UHGV virus genome: UHGV-1976995
Direction: 5' to 3' (one strand)
Source of the DNA: a virus
DNA: 34,204 bases
Part shown: positions 1 through 4,193 of the stretch, in pieces
Layout: the number at the start of each line of letters is the position of its first letter
Numbering within the stretch: position 1 is the stretch's first letter
Translations under genes and position numbers: made by a program
Notes under the pieces: generated by a model
What the model saw: only the letters and a program-made list of their open reading frames with translations
What the model was told of the DNA's origin: nothing
Databases searched by the model: none

Positions 1-68
1 CGGACGTCCAGGCTGCCTATACGCTCTCTGATTTCTTTAATCAGTTCTTTGTCGGTTAAAGTGGTCAT
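1..68 (-). CDS. hypothetical protein, 5' end only (gene continues beyond the left edge)
   Basis: ATG at 68..66 overlaps the TGA stop of the upstream nuclease-like gene (ATGA coupling); open frame reads MTTLTDKELIKEIRERIGSLDV to the window edge. Confidence 0.3.
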   Translation of the reverse strand, partial: MTTLTDKELIKEIRERIGSLDV

Positions 69-580
69 GCTGCGTTTCCTTCTTTCTTATTAACAATTAC
101 ACCGTCATATATTTCATTAAGGTGTCCTCTTAGCTCCATGCGCCTTAATGCAGATAACATGTAATCGCATTCAACCTGCTTATTCCCAGTAAATGGCTTA
201 TCGTCAGGATTACCCCAACAGCAATTACCCCTGGGCCATCCATGTACTTTCCGTACTCTTCCGTTAACAACGTGAAGTAATCCCCAGCCGGGAGGTAAAT
301 CCTCAACTGAAATAATTTCCGGCTCACTAATAAAGAATCGCCAGTCGCCCATGCCAAGTGAGGGATTTTTACGGAAACGCTTTTTTCTATCTGCCAACAA
401 GTCAGCACGAGAACACTTCGCCTCTATCAGGCATGATGCTGAATTTCTGAACCCCATAGCATCTGGCTGTTCTCCGGTACTGGTTACAGCTATAAAGCGG
501 TCATGAAAACAAACCTTGAACCCGTTGCGCTTAAGGAACTTGTACGCAATTTGACAGAGTTCGCGGTGTGTTAACGCCAT
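65..580 (-). CDS. PD-(D/E)XK nuclease-like protein (MmcB-like)
   Basis: Track ORF 65..652 trimmed to the internal ATG at 580, which has an AAGGAGAG RBS 6 nt upstream; D...IEAK motif arrangement typical of PD-(D/E)XK folds; family call from memory. Confidence 0.5.
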   Translation of the reverse strand: MALTHRELCQIAYKFLKRNGFKVCFHDRFIAVTSTGEQPDAMGFRNSASCLIEAKCSRADLLADRKKRFRKNPSLGMGDWRFFISEPEIISVEDLPPGWGLLHVVNGRVRKVHGWPRGNCCWGNPDDKPFTGNKQVECDYMLSALRRMELRGHLNEIYDGVIVNKKEGNAA

Positions 581-581
581 A

Positions 582-770
582 TCACTCTCCTTTAGTGCGC
601 AAATGGTTTTTCCAGCGGTTTTGCGCCGCGCTGGGCTTTTTGCAAAAACCACAATCCATCATCCCGTAATATTTCATCAACCCCATCCGTCGGTTGCTGA
701 GTCTCACCCACTGCCAGACGCCAGGAGCGTTTCTACGAACTAACAGAATCTTTGCTTTACGGTTTTTCAT
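582..770 (-). CDS. small basic hypothetical protein (62 aa), MKNRKAK N-terminus
   Basis: Track ORF; ATG at 770 overlaps the stop of the upstream small ORF (ATGA); its stop lies 2 nt from the next start; contains a CGFC motif. Confidence 0.4.
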   Translation of the reverse strand: MKNRKAKILLVRRNAPGVWQWVRLSNRRMGLMKYYGMMDCGFCKKPSAAQNRWKNHLRTKGE

Positions 771-943
771 CTTACTGCGTACCCTTTCTTCCGCCTGTTC
801 TGTGACGCAGTAGGCTTACGCTTTGCGGCAAAAGCCACCTGACCAAATGGATGGAGTACCGCTATCTTATGGTTGCTAATAACCAGCTCCACCACACGCA
901 CAGGTCGCTGTAAAAAAAGTCGTTTTGCCTTACGGTTTTTCAT
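767..943 (-). CDS. small basic hypothetical protein (58 aa), paralogous N-terminus MKNRKAK
   Basis: Hand-translated (below the track's length cutoff); AGGAGAG RBS upstream of the ATG at 943; first 7 codons nearly identical to the ORF at 582..770. Confidence 0.35.
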   Translation of the reverse strand: MKNRKAKRLFLQRPVRVVELVISNHKIAVLHPFGQVAFAAKRKPTASQNRRKKGYAVR

Positions 944-1116
944 CGCTTTGCTCTCCTGCGTCTCTTTGCTGCTCGTCGTGCCGCTGCAATACCGGTATGG
1001 CGGCGCTTTGGTGCCGGGATGATGTTGTCAGCCATCAGGACATACGGCTTTGCAATTAGCGCAGAAGCCCAAAAACGAGTCGGGTACGGTAACAAGCCGA
1101 TACATGCCACACGCAT
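940..1116 (-). CDS. small arginine-rich hypothetical protein (58 aa)
   Basis: Hand-translated; strong AAAGGAGGTGA RBS; ATG at 1116 abuts the Ea22-like stop; stop overlaps the next start (ATGA). Confidence 0.35.
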   Translation of the reverse strand: MRVACIGLLPYPTRFWASALIAKPYVLMADNIIPAPKRRHTGIAAARRAAKRRRRAKR

Positions 1117-1730
1117 TACTCACCTCCTTTGATGCGAATGCCTGCGGCGCGGATTGCAGCGATGACTTCAGAAACTTTGTATGCCATTACCGTTTGGTAA
1201 TCATCGTGAAAATCTGTTCGATGAAGCATGCTGCTACGTTCCGGGAGCAGTATTTCCCGCTCCTCCAGTTCTGCTATGCGCTTCTCTGATGCTTCAAGTA
1301 ACGCCTGCTTATCGCGTAGCGCTTCTTCCAGTTCAGCAACATGGCACTCACTATCAATAAGGTTGTTCTCTGCGGATTCCAGCTCAACACGCAGCTTCCC
1401 TACCGTTAGCGCAATATCCTCGTTCTCCTGGTCGCGGCGTTTGATGTATTGCTGGTTTCTTTCCCGTTCATCCAGCAGCGTCAGCACAGTAGCCGGACTG
1501 GCTGCGGCGATGAATTCAGCATTGGCCTGCTGTTCCATTTGGAAATCTTCATCGAAACCGCTTTCAGGATGCGCTCCTTCAATTCTGCAAATGGGAAGAT
1601 ATCCAACAACGTCACGATGAATTAGCGCATCATCACAATCAAATCGGCTCTCTCCATATTCGAGCGACCATACACCACACGTTGCTTTTTCTGCCTTGGC
1701 ACGCAGTGCCTGATAGTCAATCTTGCTCAC
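1116..1730 (-). CDS. Ead/Ea22-like protein
   Basis: 204 aa with a central coiled-coil segment and a C-terminus resembling the lambdoid Ea22 family (recollection); GTG start preceded by AGGAGG. Confidence 0.55.
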   Translation of the reverse strand: MSKIDYQALRAKAEKATCGVWSLEYGESRFDCDDALIHRDVVGYLPICRIEGAHPESGFDEDFQMEQQANAEFIAAASPATVLTLLDERERNQQYIKRRDQENEDIALTVGKLRVELESAENNLIDSECHVAELEEALRDKQALLEASEKRIAELEEREILLPERSSMLHRTDFHDDYQTVMAYKVSEVIAAIRAAGIRIKGGE

Positions 1731-1971: not shown

Positions 1972-2168
1972 TGGTTGCCTCCTTTGCGCCACGTCGCATT
2001 CAGATATCTGTTGTCGTTAACAGAACCGAAACTCTTTCTCTTAAGCAATTCCTCTCTCGATGGCATTGGCTTTACGCGTTGGCGAATAATCATTTCTGCC
2101 GGAAGAATGCCGGGATTGTATGCAAGTCCTCTCATGGTAAATTCCTCAGTCATTACTGATAGCGCCAT
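1968..2168 (-). CDS. hypothetical small protein (start uncertain)
   Basis: Track ORF 1968..2288 trimmed to an internal ATG because the upstream part overlaps the 2146..2442 gene; no strong RBS; stop overlaps the next start. Confidence 0.25.
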
Positions 2169-2442
2169 AGCGTGAGCGGTAATTACGCAGGCGCGGGTCG
2201 ATATATTCAGGGAAGTTGGTATATGTGGCTTTGCGGAATGGTCGGATTGATGTCTGGTAAATTCGCTCGCGTTCTTCTTTCTCTGCAAGCCATATACAAT
2301 GGCGAAATTCCTTTTCCTCTTTCGTTTCCTGCGGTAGCGACATTATCCGGTCGTAGTTTTTCCTGAATTTATCCAGCACCTCCGATACGGAATTGCCGGA
2401 ACAGCGGCGCGGGTCATCCGCACCATACTGAGGCGCTGGCAT
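2146..2442 (-). CDS. conserved phage early protein, function unknown
   Basis: 98-aa ORF directly downstream of ssb in the same operon; compact spacing. Confidence 0.45.
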
Positions 2443-2455
2443 GATTTTCTCCTGA

Positions 2456-2962
2456 TTAAATTGCGTGAATAGCGTGACGAGGGAAGGGGAGAGTTACTGG
2501 TGCAAAGGGTATATCGTCGTCAAAATCCATCGGAGGTTCGTTGTGTTGTGCTGGTGATGATTGCTGCTGTGGCTTCTGTGATTGCCTGCTGGCTGCTTGT
2601 TGTTTGCTGTCGCCAATGCTGCCAAGCATTTGCATCACGCCATTAATTCCGACATGAACCTCGGCTGTGTAACGGTCTTGCCCTGACTGGTCTTTCCACT
2701 TTCTGGTTCTCAGCATTCCCTCGAAATAAATCTGATCACCTTTTTTCACATACTGCCCCACGACCTCAGCCAGTTTCCCGGATACAGCAACACGATGCCA
2801 TTCAGTCAATTCCTTTTGCTCGCCAGTATTTTTATCTCGCCATTGTTCTGACGTGGCTATTGTCAGGTTAGCGAACGCTGTTCCTGATGGTGAGTATCGA
2901 ACTTCCGGGTCTTGTCCTACCCGACCAAGGATAATCACCTTATTTACGCCTCTGCTTGCCAT
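2456..2962 (-). CDS. ssb: single-stranded DNA-binding protein
   Basis: N-terminal OB-fold signature ([18 protein letters not shown]...WHRVAV), Gln/Pro-rich linker and acidic C-terminal tail ending DDDIPF. Confidence 0.9.
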
Positions 2963-3670
2963 CTATGCCGCCTGTTTTAGTTCGTTAACTCTGATGTTCA
3001 TTACCTGAATGCATTTAGCCTGCGCCTCCTCGTTGCCAGCCATTAATTGCCAGTCACGCTGATAACGCTCGATGAGTTTTTTCTTGTCAGTTTCTGTTGA
3101 CGCATAATCGCTGAAGTCTTTCAGGATTTGTTCGCAGTCAACCGATGGAGATTTCTGGTTGGTATTTTCTGGTGATGGTTTGTTATCTGATGCTGGGATT
3201 GCCCATCCCGGCAGCGATGGAGGGGACCAGTAAAATCCTGTTCCATCCTTCAGTTTTGCCCTGTGCCACCCCTGCTTTTTATCGAGAGATGTTTGTGCGA
3301 AACCTTCCTCAAGGTTATACAGATACCGACCGATTCCCCACTGAACGGCAGCACGCTTCATTGCACCGGAACGACCACCTTTGACGGCTTCTACCTGCGT
3401 GTTTTCAGCAGCATCCCATTTGGTTACCCATTCGGAATCAATCTTGATTGATATGCCGCATTCAACTCCGCCGTTGTTGGGAATATCGCGGTATTCATTG
3501 CGCCATCCTGCTTTGCCGCAAACATCGTCCAGGCGTTTCATGATTGCCCGGTTCGTGACATAAGCCAGCACCATAGCCCACACCTTGCCATCGCGTGTTT
3601 TACCGCTTTGCTGTATTCGCCATTCGATATCTTCAGGGCTGAATGGCTCATCGAATTTGTTCAAATCCAT
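2963..3670 (-). CDS. single-strand annealing recombinase, Rad52/Erf-type
   Basis: 235-aa protein immediately upstream of ssb in a lambdoid recombination module; start 1 nt from the ssb start; family assignment from memory of Rad52-like phage SSAPs. Confidence 0.55.
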   Translation of the reverse strand: MDLNKFDEPFSPEDIEWRIQQSGKTRDGKVWAMVLAYVTNRAIMKRLDDVCGKAGWRNEYRDIPNNGGVECGISIKIDSEWVTKWDAAENTQVEAVKGGRSGAMKRAAVQWGIGRYLYNLEEGFAQTSLDKKQGWHRAKLKDGTGFYWSPPSLPGWAIPASDNKPSPENTNQKSPSVDCEQILKDFSDYASTETDKKKLIERYQRDWQLMAGNEEAQAKCIQVMNIRVNELKQAA

Positions 3671-3772
3671 AATTCACCTCAGAATGGACACGGCCCAAGG
3701 AAATAACGCTGATTTAATACTTCGACTCGGGACAAATTAAGGCATACCCGCATTCCTTCGCGGTCACCATTA

Positions 3773-3928
3773 TGGCGATACCAGAGAGCTTTCTGCGTGT
3801 ACATGCGTCTCTGTAACTTGCTCTCCTTCACTGTGGTTGCAAGTGACATGAATATCTCCTTCGTTACCGATTAATTCTTTCATCTGACGAATGAATTCTT
3901 CGTCTGACCAGTTATCTGTAAAACTCAT
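3773..3928 (-). CDS. small acidic hypothetical protein (51 aa)
   Basis: Hand-translated; ATG overlaps the stop of the kil-like ORF (ATGA); located directly upstream of the recombinase. Confidence 0.3.
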
Positions 3929-4077
3929 TTCCTGCGATACCACGGAAGGTTGATAGCTGATTTCATCGCTTTATTTGCTTCAAGCCACATTTTTGAATCA
4001 CCAATAAATCTGGCTATTACTGCTTTGTTCTGTGCAGCACGAAGCATCTGGTGATTGATGGCTATTTCATTGCGCAT
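3925..4077 (-). CDS. kil: Kil-like small protein (50 aa)
   Basis: Hand-translated; motif IARFIGDSKMWLEA resembles what I recall of lambda Kil (ATFIGDEKMF...EA); sits downstream of cIII as in lambda. Confidence 0.35.
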   Translation of the reverse strand: MRNEIAINHQMLRAAQNKAVIARFIGDSKMWLEANKAMKSAINLPWYRRK

Positions 4078-4193
4078 AATAAGACCTCAACTCTTTTCCA
4101 TCCGTCACGTAATTTACGGGTGATTCGTTCAAGTAAAGATTCATTTAGTTGGAAGGCACCCATGCGAGCGCCTCCCGCGATTGCGTAAATCAT
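4062..4193 (-). CDS. cIII: CIII-like regulator (FtsH inhibitor), 43 aa
   Basis: Hand-translated MIYAIAGG...ESLLERITRKLRDGWKR, closely matching the lambda CIII core as I recall it; AAGGAA RBS. Confidence 0.6.
   Translation of the reverse strand: MIYAIAGGARMGAFQLNESLLERITRKLRDGWKRVEVLLCAMK

What the first reader, a model, noticed from the sequence alone, without database searches (positions are those of the whole stretch)
582..1116. Three tandem, translationally coupled small basic ORFs, two sharing an MKNRKAK N-terminus
ORFs of 58, 58 and 62 aa follow the Ea22-like gene, each start overlapping the previous stop. The second and third begin with nearly identical codons (ATGAAAAACCGTAAGGCAAAACGA versus ATGAAAAACCGTAAAGCAAAGATT) and share the upstream motif TTACGGTTTTTCAT, then diverge, suggesting a local duplication. 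Two are below the ORF-track cutoff and would be missed by standard annotation.
Basis: seen in the sequence. Interest (0 to 1): 0.5.

Follow-up and report, generated by a model that had tools for sequence, protein, structure and literature searches.

The report
Three coupled small basic prophage genes
These are three real, back-to-back small genes of a prophage's early accessory operon, two of them ancient paralogs; public databases already list them as proteins of unknown function, so the finding is correct but ordinary.

Summary
ORF1 (1116..940, 58 aa), ORF2 (943..767, 58 aa) and ORF3 (770..582, 62 aa) follow an Ea22-like gene. Their stops and starts overlap (TAATG, ATGA, ATGA). All three proteins are very basic (pI 11.3-12).

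All three are real genes.
- They match existing PHROG families: ORF1 is phrog_13831; ORF2 and ORF3 are both phrog_1380.
- RefSeq already annotates all three as hypothetical proteins in a 100%-identical record.
- pN/pS is lowest in the proposed frame among the three sense frames (0.23-0.47).
- A 933W homolog of ORF1, X015, was reported as translated by Ribo-seq in E. coli EDL933.

ORF2 and ORF3 are paralogs of an old, narrow enterobacterial-phage family, not a recent local duplication. The family has three strongly constrained motifs: MKNRKAK, (R/K)(I/V)SN(R/H)(R/K) and SAAQNRWKNH. Two near-neutral spacers separate them.

The order O1, then an A-type gene, then a B/C/D-type gene recurs in many phages. 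Whole units are gained or lost by recombination at the 21-nt start repeat.

"TTACGGTTTTTCAT" is only the reverse complement of the start codons. Annotation is inconsistent; the 933W reference record has neither gene.

Function is unknown. No Pfam, PDB or fold match was found. My best guess, at low confidence, is nucleic-acid binding.

The parts
1116..1730 (-). Ead/Ea22-like gene (204 aa). It is the upstream gene of the cassette, and its stop TAA overlaps the ORF1 ATG (TAATG).
   Evidence: Pfam PF13935 E 1.1e-31. PGAP calls it 'ead/Ea22-like family protein' in identical records.
1121..1130 (-). Shine-Dalgarno AAAGGAGGTG for ORF1, inside the last codons of the Ea22-like gene, about 6 nt before the ATG at 1116.
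   Evidence: Read from the sequence. The junction folds into a -24.9 kcal/mol hairpin that pairs the AUG (z -1.9). That fits coupling but is not significant on its own.
940..1116 (-). ORF1, 58 aa, pI 12. The N-terminal half is proline-rich and hydrophobic. The C-terminal tail is arginine-rich (PAPKRRHTGIAAARRAAKRRRRAKR). It belongs to phrog_13831 and is a homolog of the Ribo-seq-supported gene X015 of E. coli EDL933/933W.
   Evidence: phrog_13831 E 1.1e-41 over the full length. RefSeq WP_001261538.1. pN/pS 0.41 in frame against 1.9 and 0.7 in the other sense frames; variable sites by codon position 5/7/16. The start is ATG or GTG through the single change TAATG to TAGTG, which keeps both the stop and a start. 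X015: Ribo-seq RPKM 34.8, coverage 0.84.
767..943 (-). ORF2, 58 aa, pI 12. It is the 'A-type' member of the MKNRKAK family (phrog_1380), with central motif ISNHK and tail KPTASQNRRKKGYAVR. Its start overlaps the ORF1 stop (ATGA), and a GGAGAG Shine-Dalgarno lies 7 nt upstream.
   Evidence: phrog_1380 E 6.5e-23. RefSeq WP_000797289.1. pN/pS 0.29; against the A2 subtype 0.37, with the motifs at 0.05-0.16.
582..770 (-). ORF3, 62 aa, pI 11.3. It is the 'B-type' member of the same family, with central motif LSNRR and tail KPSAAQNRWKNHLRTKGE. Its start overlaps the ORF2 stop (ATGA). Its last codons carry the Shine-Dalgarno AAAGGAGAG (593..585) for the next gene.
   Evidence: phrog_1380 E 1e-40. RefSeq WP_000797279.1. 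pN/pS 0.29. 98% identical to the gene that follows X015 in 933W, VT2-Sakai and Min27.
924..944 (-). Copy 1 of the 21-nt direct repeat (GATGAAAAACCGTAAGGCAAA on the minus strand) at the ORF1/ORF2 junction. It contains the ATG plus stops in both other frames (TGA, TAA).
   Evidence: family D2; 0 expected by chance; recombination between the two copies deletes exactly one 173-nt unit in L096.
751..771 (-). Copy 2 of the 21-nt direct repeat, at the ORF2/ORF3 junction (20/21 identical to copy 1).
65..580 (-). Downstream gene, 171 aa (phrog_631 / phrog_9263, unknown function). It starts 1 nt after the ORF3 stop and is context, not part of the family.
   Evidence: Frameshift fusions of ORF3 with this gene exist (234 aa in L065) and explain the 230-aa phrog_9263.

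Best explanation
The region holds three genuine protein-coding accessory genes of the early-left (pL-type, 'exo-xis'/ea) operon of a P22-like lambdoid prophage. They are transcribed on the minus strand together with the recombination and anti-RecBCD genes and the Ea22-like gene.

How they are expressed (inferred from anatomy):
- Ribosomes pass from gene to gene by termination-reinitiation at the overlapping junctions TAATG, ATGA and ATGA.
- No internal promoter-like site was found on either strand, and no terminator-like site on the coding strand.
- The conserved start ATGAAAAACCGTAA carries stops in both other frames. Whatever frame the upstream gene uses, it therefore ends at or next to the start.

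What the genes are:
- ORF1 belongs to phrog_13831.
- ORF2 (A-type) and ORF3 (B-type) are old paralogs of one narrow enterobacterial-phage family (phrog_1380).
- That family has three strongly constrained basic/polar motifs: M(K/N)NRKA(K/R), (R/K)(I/V)SN(R/H)(R/K) and SAAQNRWKNH. Two fast-evolving spacers separate them.
- Units are shuffled, lost and gained by homologous recombination at the conserved ends.

What the proteins do (inferred, about 0.35): they are 6.6-7.4 kDa with pI 11-12. I think they most likely act early after infection or induction by binding a polyanionic target. Nucleic acid, RNA or DNA, is the most likely such target. The three motifs would form the contact surface; in the AlphaFold model they fall on helix 1, the beta1-beta2 turn and the start of helix 2. 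In this way they would modulate host or phage gene expression, as proposed for other exo-xis proteins.

My probabilities that the genes are real and translated are about 0.9 for ORF2 and ORF3 and about 0.8 for ORF1.
For: Anatomy:
- ORFs and junctions.
- No sigma-70-like promoter in 1-2500 on either strand, and no terminator-like site on the coding strand.
- No Rfam family in the window.

Known families and annotation:
- phrog_13831 at E 1e-41; phrog_1380 at E 6.5e-23 and 1e-40.
- PGAP proteins WP_001261538.1, WP_000797289.1 and WP_000797279.1 in a 100%-identical record.

Frame conservation:
- The order O1, A-type, then B/C/D/E/F-type, with -4 overlaps, is seen in most of the 85 sequences tabulated: the 80 IMG/VR loci, four annotated records and this window. 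45 of the 85 show exactly O1-A-B.

Selection:
- pN/pS is 0.23-0.47 in the proposed frame for six allele groups, against 0.6-3.6 in the other sense frames. Variation is enriched at third codon positions in five of those six groups.
- Region by region, A against A2: the motifs give 0.05-0.16 despite pS of 0.37-1.57, and the spacers give 0.57-1.0.
- Distant members from Klebsiella and a metagenome keep the motifs through synonymous changes.

Translation:
- X015, the 933W homolog of ORF1 lying between Ea22 and a B-type gene, has Ribo-seq RPKM 34.8, footprint coverage 0.84 and RCV 0.32, and was classified 'real' (PMC4765031).

Cassette dynamics:
- Exactly one 173-nt unit is deleted between the repeats in L096.
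- A B-body/A-tail hybrid exists (B60).
- The 5' and 3' ends are nearly identical between B, C, D and F types with unrelated middles.

Basis for the binding idea:
- pI 11.3-12.
- N/R/K/Q-rich motifs.
- AlphaFold2 alpha-beta3-alpha model at pLDDT 70.6.
- ORF1 is modelled as two helices, the second arginine-rich.
Against: - No functional evidence of any kind exists.
- No Pfam, NCBIfam or PADLOC hit. No PDB sequence hit.
- The structure models are only moderately confident (pLDDT 70.6 and 66; pTM 0.38 and 0.26).
- The antisense frame that shares wobble positions has an equally low pN/pS. That is expected, so dN/dS alone does not fix the strand. The strand rests on the complete ORFs, the starts, the Shine-Dalgarno sites and the operon direction.
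- A common ORF1 variant has its basic tail frameshifted into an acidic one (P0148, listed in 106 blocks of the collection). Frameshifted or fused family members also occur. These genes therefore decay readily in prophages.
- The Ribo-seq evidence concerns a homolog, at low level, in an uninduced lysogen, with no mass-spectrometry peptides.
- The Shine-Dalgarno site for ORF3 is weak.
Confidence: 0.7

Rival explanations
1. The products are protein-directed host-takeover or counter-defence factors. They would bind a host protein, such as a defence system, RNA polymerase or a division or replication factor, rather than nucleic acid. The fast-evolving spacers and the multiple subtypes would reflect an arms race.
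For: - They lie in the early accessory operon next to an anti-RecBCD (Abc2-like) gene and other exo-xis-type genes.
- The literature assigns host-directed roles to several exo-xis proteins (PMC8614690).
- Spacers evolve near-neutrally or faster (ratio 1.0 between A and A2, 2.5 within A).
- Many subtypes are exchanged among temperate, P1-like and even lytic phages.
Against: - No match to any anti-defence or defence model that could be tested (PADLOC none). The best Foldseek hits, including Acb4, are insignificant.
- The strongly conserved parts are basic/polar motifs typical of polyanion binding.
- Nothing ties any subtype to a particular host defence system.
Confidence: 0.25
2. ORF1 is translated mainly as a coupling spacer. 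Its translation would hand ribosomes from the Ea22-like gene to the MKNRKAK genes, and its peptide would have little function of its own.
For: - The perfect Shine-Dalgarno site and TAATG junction, with the AUG paired in a hairpin.
- The C-terminal 23 codons overlap the initiation region of ORF2.
- A widespread variant has the tail in another frame and ends inside the next gene's start, at CCGTAA.
- Some loci lack ORF1 altogether (L069, L060).
- X015 carries a 7-aa internal deletion.
Against: - pN/pS is 0.44 in the N-terminal part and 0.31 in the C-terminal part, with third-position enrichment.
- The start codon is kept as ATG or GTG.
- The family is maintained down to 56-70% identity with conserved L8, L9, P10, P24, D30, P34 and the TGIAAARRAAK tail.
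Confidence: 0.15
3. The conservation is at DNA level only. The repeated start and end sequences would be recombination 'boundary/linker' sequences of mosaic lambdoid genomes, and the ORFs would be incidental.
For: - The 5' 21 nt and the 3' roughly 50 nt are almost identical in nucleotide sequence between B, C, D and F types whose middles are unrelated.
- Hybrids and precise unit deletions occur at these sequences.
Against: - Between A and A2 the motif codons show abundant synonymous change (pS 0.37-1.57) with pN/pS of 0.05-0.16.
- Klebsiella and metagenome members keep the motif residues while differing at synonymous sites.
- The central SNR motif is not at a gene boundary.
- ORF lengths of 58-63 aa are kept across all subtypes.
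Confidence: 0.05
4. ORF2 and ORF3 are a HicA-like (dsRBD-fold) RNA-cleaving toxin pair, or a toxin-antitoxin-like pair.
For: - Size is about 60 aa and the proteins are basic.
- The predicted topology is alpha-beta-beta-beta-alpha.
- A-type members have S-N-H in the first strand/turn, reminiscent of the G-S-H motif of HicA (my recollection of HicA, a lead only).
- The top Foldseek PDB hit is HicA 6g26_F.
- The genes overlap by ATGA.
Against: - hhalign against E. coli HicA gives probability 0.7%.
- There is no Pfam HicA_toxin hit and no HicB-like neighbour.
- B-type members have Arg in place of the His.
- Either type occurs alone in many phages.
Confidence: 0.04

Closest known systems
PHROG families phrog_1380 (ORF2, ORF3) and phrog_13831 (ORF1); RefSeq hypothetical proteins WP_000797289.1, WP_000797279.1 and WP_001261538.1
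   Same: The sequences are identical or nearly so, with full-length HMM matches. The gene order after an Ea22-like gene is the same in Stx phages, P22-like prophages, phiV10, and P1-like phages RCS47 and D6.
   Different: Nothing differs; this window is simply another copy. The families carry no functional annotation and are absent from Pfam and NCBIfam.
X015, a 'novel gene' of E. coli O157:H7 EDL933 (Neuhaus et al. 2016, BMC Genomics 17:133, PMC4765031)
   Same: It is a homolog of ORF1 in prophage 933W. It has the same TAATG junction with Ea22 and the same ATGA junction with a following MKNRKAK gene. It was detected by RNA-seq and Ribo-seq.
   Different: X015 is 51 aa, with a 7-aa internal deletion. 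In 933W it is followed directly by the B-type gene, with no A-type gene in between.
[quoted passage not shown]
   Same: The position is the same: pL operon, after ea22 and before xis/int. They are small, non-essential early genes, and 'full or partial gene duplication' is noted in Stx phages.
   Different: The characterised exo-xis proteins (Orf60a, Orf63, Orf61, Orf73, Ea22, Ea8.5, Orf55, Gp05) are unrelated in sequence. The MKNRKAK and ORF1 families are not discussed or modelled in the sections of that paper I read (2 and 5) or in the passages my term search returned.
Arginine-rich / small basic nucleic-acid-binding phage proteins (for example the lambda N ARM) and dsRBD-like alpha-beta3-alpha domains (HicA)
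   Same: They share small size, very high pI and N/R/K/Q-rich conserved motifs. For ORF2 and ORF3 the predicted alpha-beta3-alpha order of elements also matches.
   Different: No sequence or fold similarity could be shown. The resemblance is compositional and topological only.

Membership tests
phrog_1380 (MKNRKAK small basic phage protein family) | Full-length match to the family HMM (62 positions) | tested here: met
   ORF3 E 1e-40 (1-62 of 62). ORF2 E 6.5e-23 (1-58 onto 1-60 of 62).
phrog_1380 (MKNRKAK small basic phage protein family) | Three conserved motifs: M(K/N)NRKA(K/R) at the N-terminus, a central (R/K)(I/V)SN(R/H)(R/K), and a C-terminal (S/T)A(A/S)QNR(W/R)K | tested here: met
   Both ORFs carry all three motifs. 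The motifs are under strong purifying selection.
phrog_13831 (ORF1 / X015 family) | Full-length HMM match, plus a GLLPYP...D..IP core and a TGIAAARRAAK(K/R)RRR tail | tested here: met
   E 1.1e-41, 1-58 of 58; alignment A5.
Translationally coupled polycistronic cassette | Stop and start codons overlap or abut, with a Shine-Dalgarno site inside the upstream ORF | tested here: met
   TAATG, ATGA, ATGA. Shine-Dalgarno AAGGAGGTGA (ORF1) and GGAGAG (ORF2); weak AAGGG for ORF3. The -4 overlaps are conserved in nearly all related loci.
Translationally coupled polycistronic cassette | Downstream translation depends on upstream translation | not testable with these tools
   This needs reporter fusions with upstream nonsense mutations. 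The only hint is a hairpin that pairs the ORF1 AUG (z -1.9).
Lambdoid exo-xis / ea accessory region genes | Location in the early-left operon between the recombination genes and xis/int, on the same strand | tested here: met
   In the window, ssb, a Rad52-like gene, an anti-RecBCD gene and the Ea22-like gene lie upstream on the minus strand. In the 100%-identical L003 a TorI/xis-like gene and the chromosomal junction lie downstream. In Min27, VT2-Sakai and 933W the homologs lie between ea22 and xis.
HicA toxin (dsRBD-like fold) | HicA_toxin HMM or profile similarity | tested here: not met
   No Pfam hit at E up to 1 for ORF2, ORF3 or 27 diverse members. hhalign probability 0.7%.
HicA toxin (dsRBD-like fold) | Structural superposition on a HicA/dsRBD fold | tested here: not met
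HicA toxin (dsRBD-like fold) | Adjacent HicB antitoxin gene | tested here: not met
   The neighbours are the Ea22-like gene, ORF1, a paralog and a 171-aa phrog_631 protein.
CsrA/RsmA | Profile similarity to CsrA | tested here: not met
   hhalign probability 0.2%. No Pfam CsrA hit.
Arginine-rich-motif RNA-binding peptides (ORF1 tail) | Specific binding of an RNA hairpin by an Arg-rich helix | not testable with these tools
   Only the composition (RRHTGIAAARRAAKRRRRAKR) and a predicted helix 40-57 at pLDDT about 75 are available.

The most novel reading that the evidence does not exclude
The MKNRKAK proteins would be a previously unrecognised class of miniature nucleic-acid-binding (probably RNA-binding) phage regulators. 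A three-motif contact surface would be mounted on a freely evolving alpha-beta3-alpha scaffold. The A-type and B-type paralogs, perhaps with the Arg-rich ORF1, would act together as a hetero-oligomer early in infection. They would redirect host or phage gene expression or disable an RNA-based defence. The built-in three-frame stop/start junction would make each unit a 'plug-and-play' module that can be inserted behind any gene, which would explain its spread into lambdoid, P22-like, P1-like and lytic phages.
Probability: 0.12. Interest if true: 0.55.

Novelty: already known. Interest (0 to 1): 0.27.

Why it matters
The cassette is widespread. 587 of 5,426 complete E. coli genomes match the 535-bp region, and 126 of those match at least 80% of it. 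It is also in 307 PLSDB plasmids, mostly P1-like phage-plasmids, and in the clinically important Stx2 phages 933W and VT2-Sakai.

It sits in the exo-xis region, which is reported to influence the lysis-lysogeny decision and hence Shiga-toxin production. Yet annotation is erratic and no function has been proposed.

This analysis contributes three practical things:
- a consistent gene model for all three genes;
- a motif definition that separates constrained from free positions, ready for mutagenesis;
- a link to existing Ribo-seq evidence.

It does not reveal a new kind of system.

Tried and rejected
- **Pfam, NCBIfam and PADLOC scans** of the three ORFs and of 27 diverse family members gave nothing. 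There was only a chance-level zf-C2H2_jaz hit at E 0.096.
- **PDB sequence searches** with both family profiles gave nothing.
- **AlphaFold2 models** were moderate: ORF3 pLDDT 70.6, ORF1 pLDDT 66.
- **CsrA lead.** It came from my noticing 'ILLVRR' against the 'LILTRR' of CsrA. hhalign rejected it.
- **HicA/dsRBD lead.** It came from the alpha-beta3-alpha topology and the SNH motif. hhalign, Pfam, the fold searches and the missing HicB neighbour rejected it.
- **Non-coding RNA or regulatory element.** There was no Rfam family in the whole window and no promoter-like site. Neither junction upstream of an MKNRKAK start is unusually structured (z +1.4 and -1.4).
- **Pas sRNAs of prophages.** A paper surfaced by the literature search places them in the late/lysis region, so they are unrelated.
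- **Literature searches** for the sequences, accession numbers, PHROG ids and locus tags found no paper. A search for a counter-defence screen of enterobacteriophage accessory regions found nothing relevant.
- **The E. coli O157:H7 Sakai Ribo-seq supplements** contain neither family.
- **Exhaustive HMM search of 1.84 billion representatives** returned only 47 clusters, with no link to an annotated family.
Full report
**1. What is in the sequence.**

Three ORFs follow one another on the minus strand: ORF1 1116..940 (58 aa), ORF2 943..767 (58 aa) and ORF3 770..582 (62 aa).

- The gene immediately upstream (1730..1116) is Ead/Ea22-like (PF13935, E 1.1e-31).
- The Ea22 stop and the ORF1 start share a base (TAATG). 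A near-consensus Shine-Dalgarno, AAGGAGGTGA, precedes them.
- ORF1/ORF2 and ORF2/ORF3 overlap as ATGA.
- The ORF3 stop is followed after one base by the ATG of a 171-aa gene (580..65). That gene's Shine-Dalgarno, AAAGGAGAG, lies in the last ORF3 codons.
- The two MKNRKAK starts are a 21-nt direct repeat, 20/21 identical. A 20-nt degenerate pattern for it occurs twice in the window against 0 expected.
- The proteins have pI 12.0, 12.0 and 11.3.
- Within 1-2500 there is no promoter-like site on either strand and no terminator-like site on the coding strand. The whole window has no Rfam match.
- The surrounding genes (ssb, a Rad52-like recombinase, anti-RecBCD, kil, cIII in an identical RefSeq record) show that this is the early-left operon of a P22-like lambdoid prophage. 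This is the region called exo-xis in lambda and Stx phages.

**2. Are they genes?**

All three match existing phage protein families. ORF1 is phrog_13831 (E 1e-41). ORF2 and ORF3 are both phrog_1380 (E 6.5e-23 and 1e-40).

A chromosome 100% identical over 400-1300 has all three annotated by PGAP as hypothetical proteins: WP_001261538.1, WP_000797289.1 and WP_000797279.1.

I tabulated 85 sequences: 80 related IMG/VR loci, four annotated records and this window. The same architecture recurs in most of them:
- an Ea22-like gene, then O1, then an A-type gene (tail QNRRKKGYAVR), then a B/C/D/E/F-type gene (tail QNRWKNHLRTKGE);
- -4 overlaps between neighbours almost everywhere;
- lengths held at 58-63 aa.

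Nei-Gojobori counts on the unique alleles give pN/pS of 0.23-0.47 in the proposed frame for six allele groups, against 0.6-3.6 in the other two sense frames. In five of the six groups variable sites concentrate at third codon positions, for example 5/7/16 in ORF1; the C-type group (10/7/9) is the exception.

The antisense frame that shares wobble positions scores as low. That is expected and does not decide the strand. The strand follows from the complete ORFs, the starts, the Shine-Dalgarno sites and the operon direction.

The ORF1 start is ATG or GTG through TAATG to TAGTG. That single change preserves both the Ea22 stop and an ORF1 start.

There is also experimental evidence. Neuhaus et al. 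2016 (PMC4765031) list the 'novel gene' X015 of E. coli O157:H7 EDL933: 156 bp, of phage origin, with RNA-seq RPKM 108.8, Ribo-seq RPKM 34.8, footprint coverage 0.84 and RCV 0.32, classified 'real'. X015 is an ORF1 homolog with a 7-aa deletion. I located it in 933W, VT2-Sakai and Min27 directly after Ea22 (TAATG). Its stop overlaps, as ATGA, a gene 98% identical to ORF3.

**3. The ORF2/ORF3 family.**

ORF2 and ORF3 are 34% identical over their full length. Alignments of close and distant members show three conserved motifs:
- M(K/N)NRKA(K/R)xL at the N-terminus;
- (R/K)(I/V)SN(R/H)(R/K) in the centre;
- (S/T)A(A/S)QNR(W/R)K(N/K)(H/G) near the C-terminus.

Two variable spacers separate the motifs.

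Region-wise pN/pS between the A and A2 subtypes:

| Codons | Region | pN/pS |
|---|---|---|
| 1-8 | N-terminal motif | 0.16 |
| 9-21 | spacer | 1.01 |
| 22-27 | central motif | 0.08 |
| 28-42 | spacer | 0.57 |
| 43-52 | C-terminal motif | 0.15 |
| 53-58 | tail | 0.05 |

Synonymous divergence across these regions is 0.37-1.57. Klebsiella and metagenome members keep the motif residues while differing at synonymous sites. The motifs are therefore constrained as protein, not merely as DNA.

At the same time, B, C, D and F types with unrelated middles share almost identical nucleotide sequence in the first 21 and last roughly 50 nt. Three further observations point the same way:
- a hybrid with a B body and an A tail occupies the first position in some loci;
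- in L096 exactly one 173-nt unit, the A-type gene, is missing between the two repeats;
- single units sit behind unrelated genes in the lytic phage Av-05 and in siphovirus Sasha.

So recombination at the conserved ends moves, deletes and reshuffles units.

The start sequence ATGAAAAACCGTAA contains stops in both other frames (TGA, TAA). An upstream ORF in either frame therefore ends at the start. The frameshifted ORF1 variant does end at CCGTAA.

The duplication that gave ORF2 and ORF3 is thus old and family-wide, not local to this genome. The annotators of phiV10 had already noted that p50 and p51 resemble each other and VT2-Sap08.

**4. Distribution and annotation.**

The family is narrow.
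- It has 78 clusters in the 5.8-billion-protein search and only 47 representative clusters in 1.84 billion. Every hit that carries an organism name is from Escherichia, Salmonella or Klebsiella, and every source-given name is hypothetical or similarly uninformative.
- ORF1 relatives number 83 clusters; the named ones are all Escherichia.
- The 535-bp region matches 587 of 5,426 complete E. coli genomes, with 126 matching at least 80% of it. There are 289 places on plasmids.
- It also matches 307 PLSDB plasmids, mostly non-mobilizable and about 90-100 kb, consistent with P1-like phage-plasmids such as RCS47.

Annotation is inconsistent.
- RefSeq RCS47 and TL-2011c list only ORF2.
- One identical plasmid lists ORF2 and ORF3 but not ORF1.
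- 933W lists neither the O1 nor the B-type gene.
- VT2-Sakai extends the B-type gene to 155 aa, which is the origin of phrog_12350.
- Frameshift fusions with the downstream gene gave rise to the 230-aa phrog_9263.

**5. What they might do.**

No function can be assigned by homology.
- Pfam, NCBIfam and PADLOC gave nothing.
- PDB sequence searches gave nothing.
- AlphaFold2 with the family alignment gives ORF3 an alpha-beta-beta-beta-alpha arrangement (H4-13, E19-25, E28-33, E38-44, H48-60) at pLDDT 70.6.
- It gives ORF1 two helices, the second arginine-rich, at pLDDT 66.
- Two leads from my own reading of the sequences, CsrA-like and HicA/dsRBD-like, failed profile and fold tests.

What remains is inference. 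The proteins are extremely basic. The constrained residues are Asn, Arg, Lys and Gln. In the model they fall on helix 1, the beta1-beta2 turn and the start of helix 2. The genes are expressed with the earliest phage genes, in a region whose other products are thought to modulate host transcription and the lysis-lysogeny decision (PMC8614690).

I therefore favour binding of nucleic acid or another polyanion through a three-motif surface, at about 0.35. A protein-directed host-takeover or counter-defence role is the main functional rival, at about 0.25.

**6. Verdict.**

The coupling and paralogy interpretation is right in outline. The 'local duplication' and 'missed by annotation' parts are only partly right. 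The genes are already catalogued as PHROG families and RefSeq hypothetical proteins, and one homolog has been published as a Ribo-seq-supported gene. They are functionally uncharacterised members of a narrow phage family.

This is an ordinary feature of lambdoid accessory regions, and I score interest low to moderate. The useful products here are a consistent gene model, the three-motif and two-spacer description, and evidence that units are exchanged at their conserved ends.

Noticed in passing
window 65-580 (-): The 171-aa gene immediately downstream (phrog_631/phrog_9263, no Pfam or PDB match) contains a D...E-x-K-like stretch (PDAMGF...CLIEAKCSRAD). It also has a weak hit to a 'DNA repair protein' PHROG (phrog_5429, E 0.0055). 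It may be a PD-(D/E)xK nuclease-like protein. In some contigs (L065) a frameshift fuses it to ORF3 as a 234-aa product.
   Followed up: partly
window 1093-1158 (-): The Ea22/ORF1 junction folds into a -24.9 kcal/mol hairpin. It pairs the ORF1 AUG and leaves most of the Shine-Dalgarno in the loop (z -1.9; 8 of 200 shuffles fold as well). This could enforce translational coupling, but it is not significant on its own.
   Followed up: partly
L096 1480-1900 (E. coli CP077506.1) against window 560-1140: This is a common variant lineage; protein P0148 is listed in 106 blocks of the collection. It combines a 1-nt deletion, which turns the basic tail of ORF1 into an acidic one ending at CCGTAA inside the next start, with a precise loss of the A-type gene.
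   Followed up: yes
P0050, P0068, P0001/P0062: Chimeric and frameshifted family members exist. One has a B-type N-terminal half fused to a DUF4014 C-terminal half. One is a double-frameshift variant that keeps only the terminal motifs. Others are in-frame fusions with truncated Ea22-like N-termini. All point to frequent recombination and decay in this region.
   Followed up: partly
L027 (IMGVR_UViG_2537562191_000021): One contig carries the module twice: O1-A-B, then 569 nt later O1-B.
   Followed up: no
window 2146-3670 (-): The upstream operon genes are, by annotation of an identical RefSeq record, a phage anti-RecBCD protein (Abc2-like), ssb and a Rad52/Rad22-family recombinase. Late genes typical of a P22-like phage (large ORFs at 19.8-24.2 kb) lie on the plus strand. 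The same small-gene cassette also sits in P1-like phage-plasmids, so it crosses between very different phage types.
   Followed up: partly
NC_000924.1 (933W) 3763-4103, L088: The reference annotation of the Stx2 phage 933W has no CDS for either X015 or the MKNRKAK gene. ST933Wp08 (3546-3833) overlaps the 3' end of the latter in another frame. The reference record would benefit from re-annotation.
   Followed up: yes
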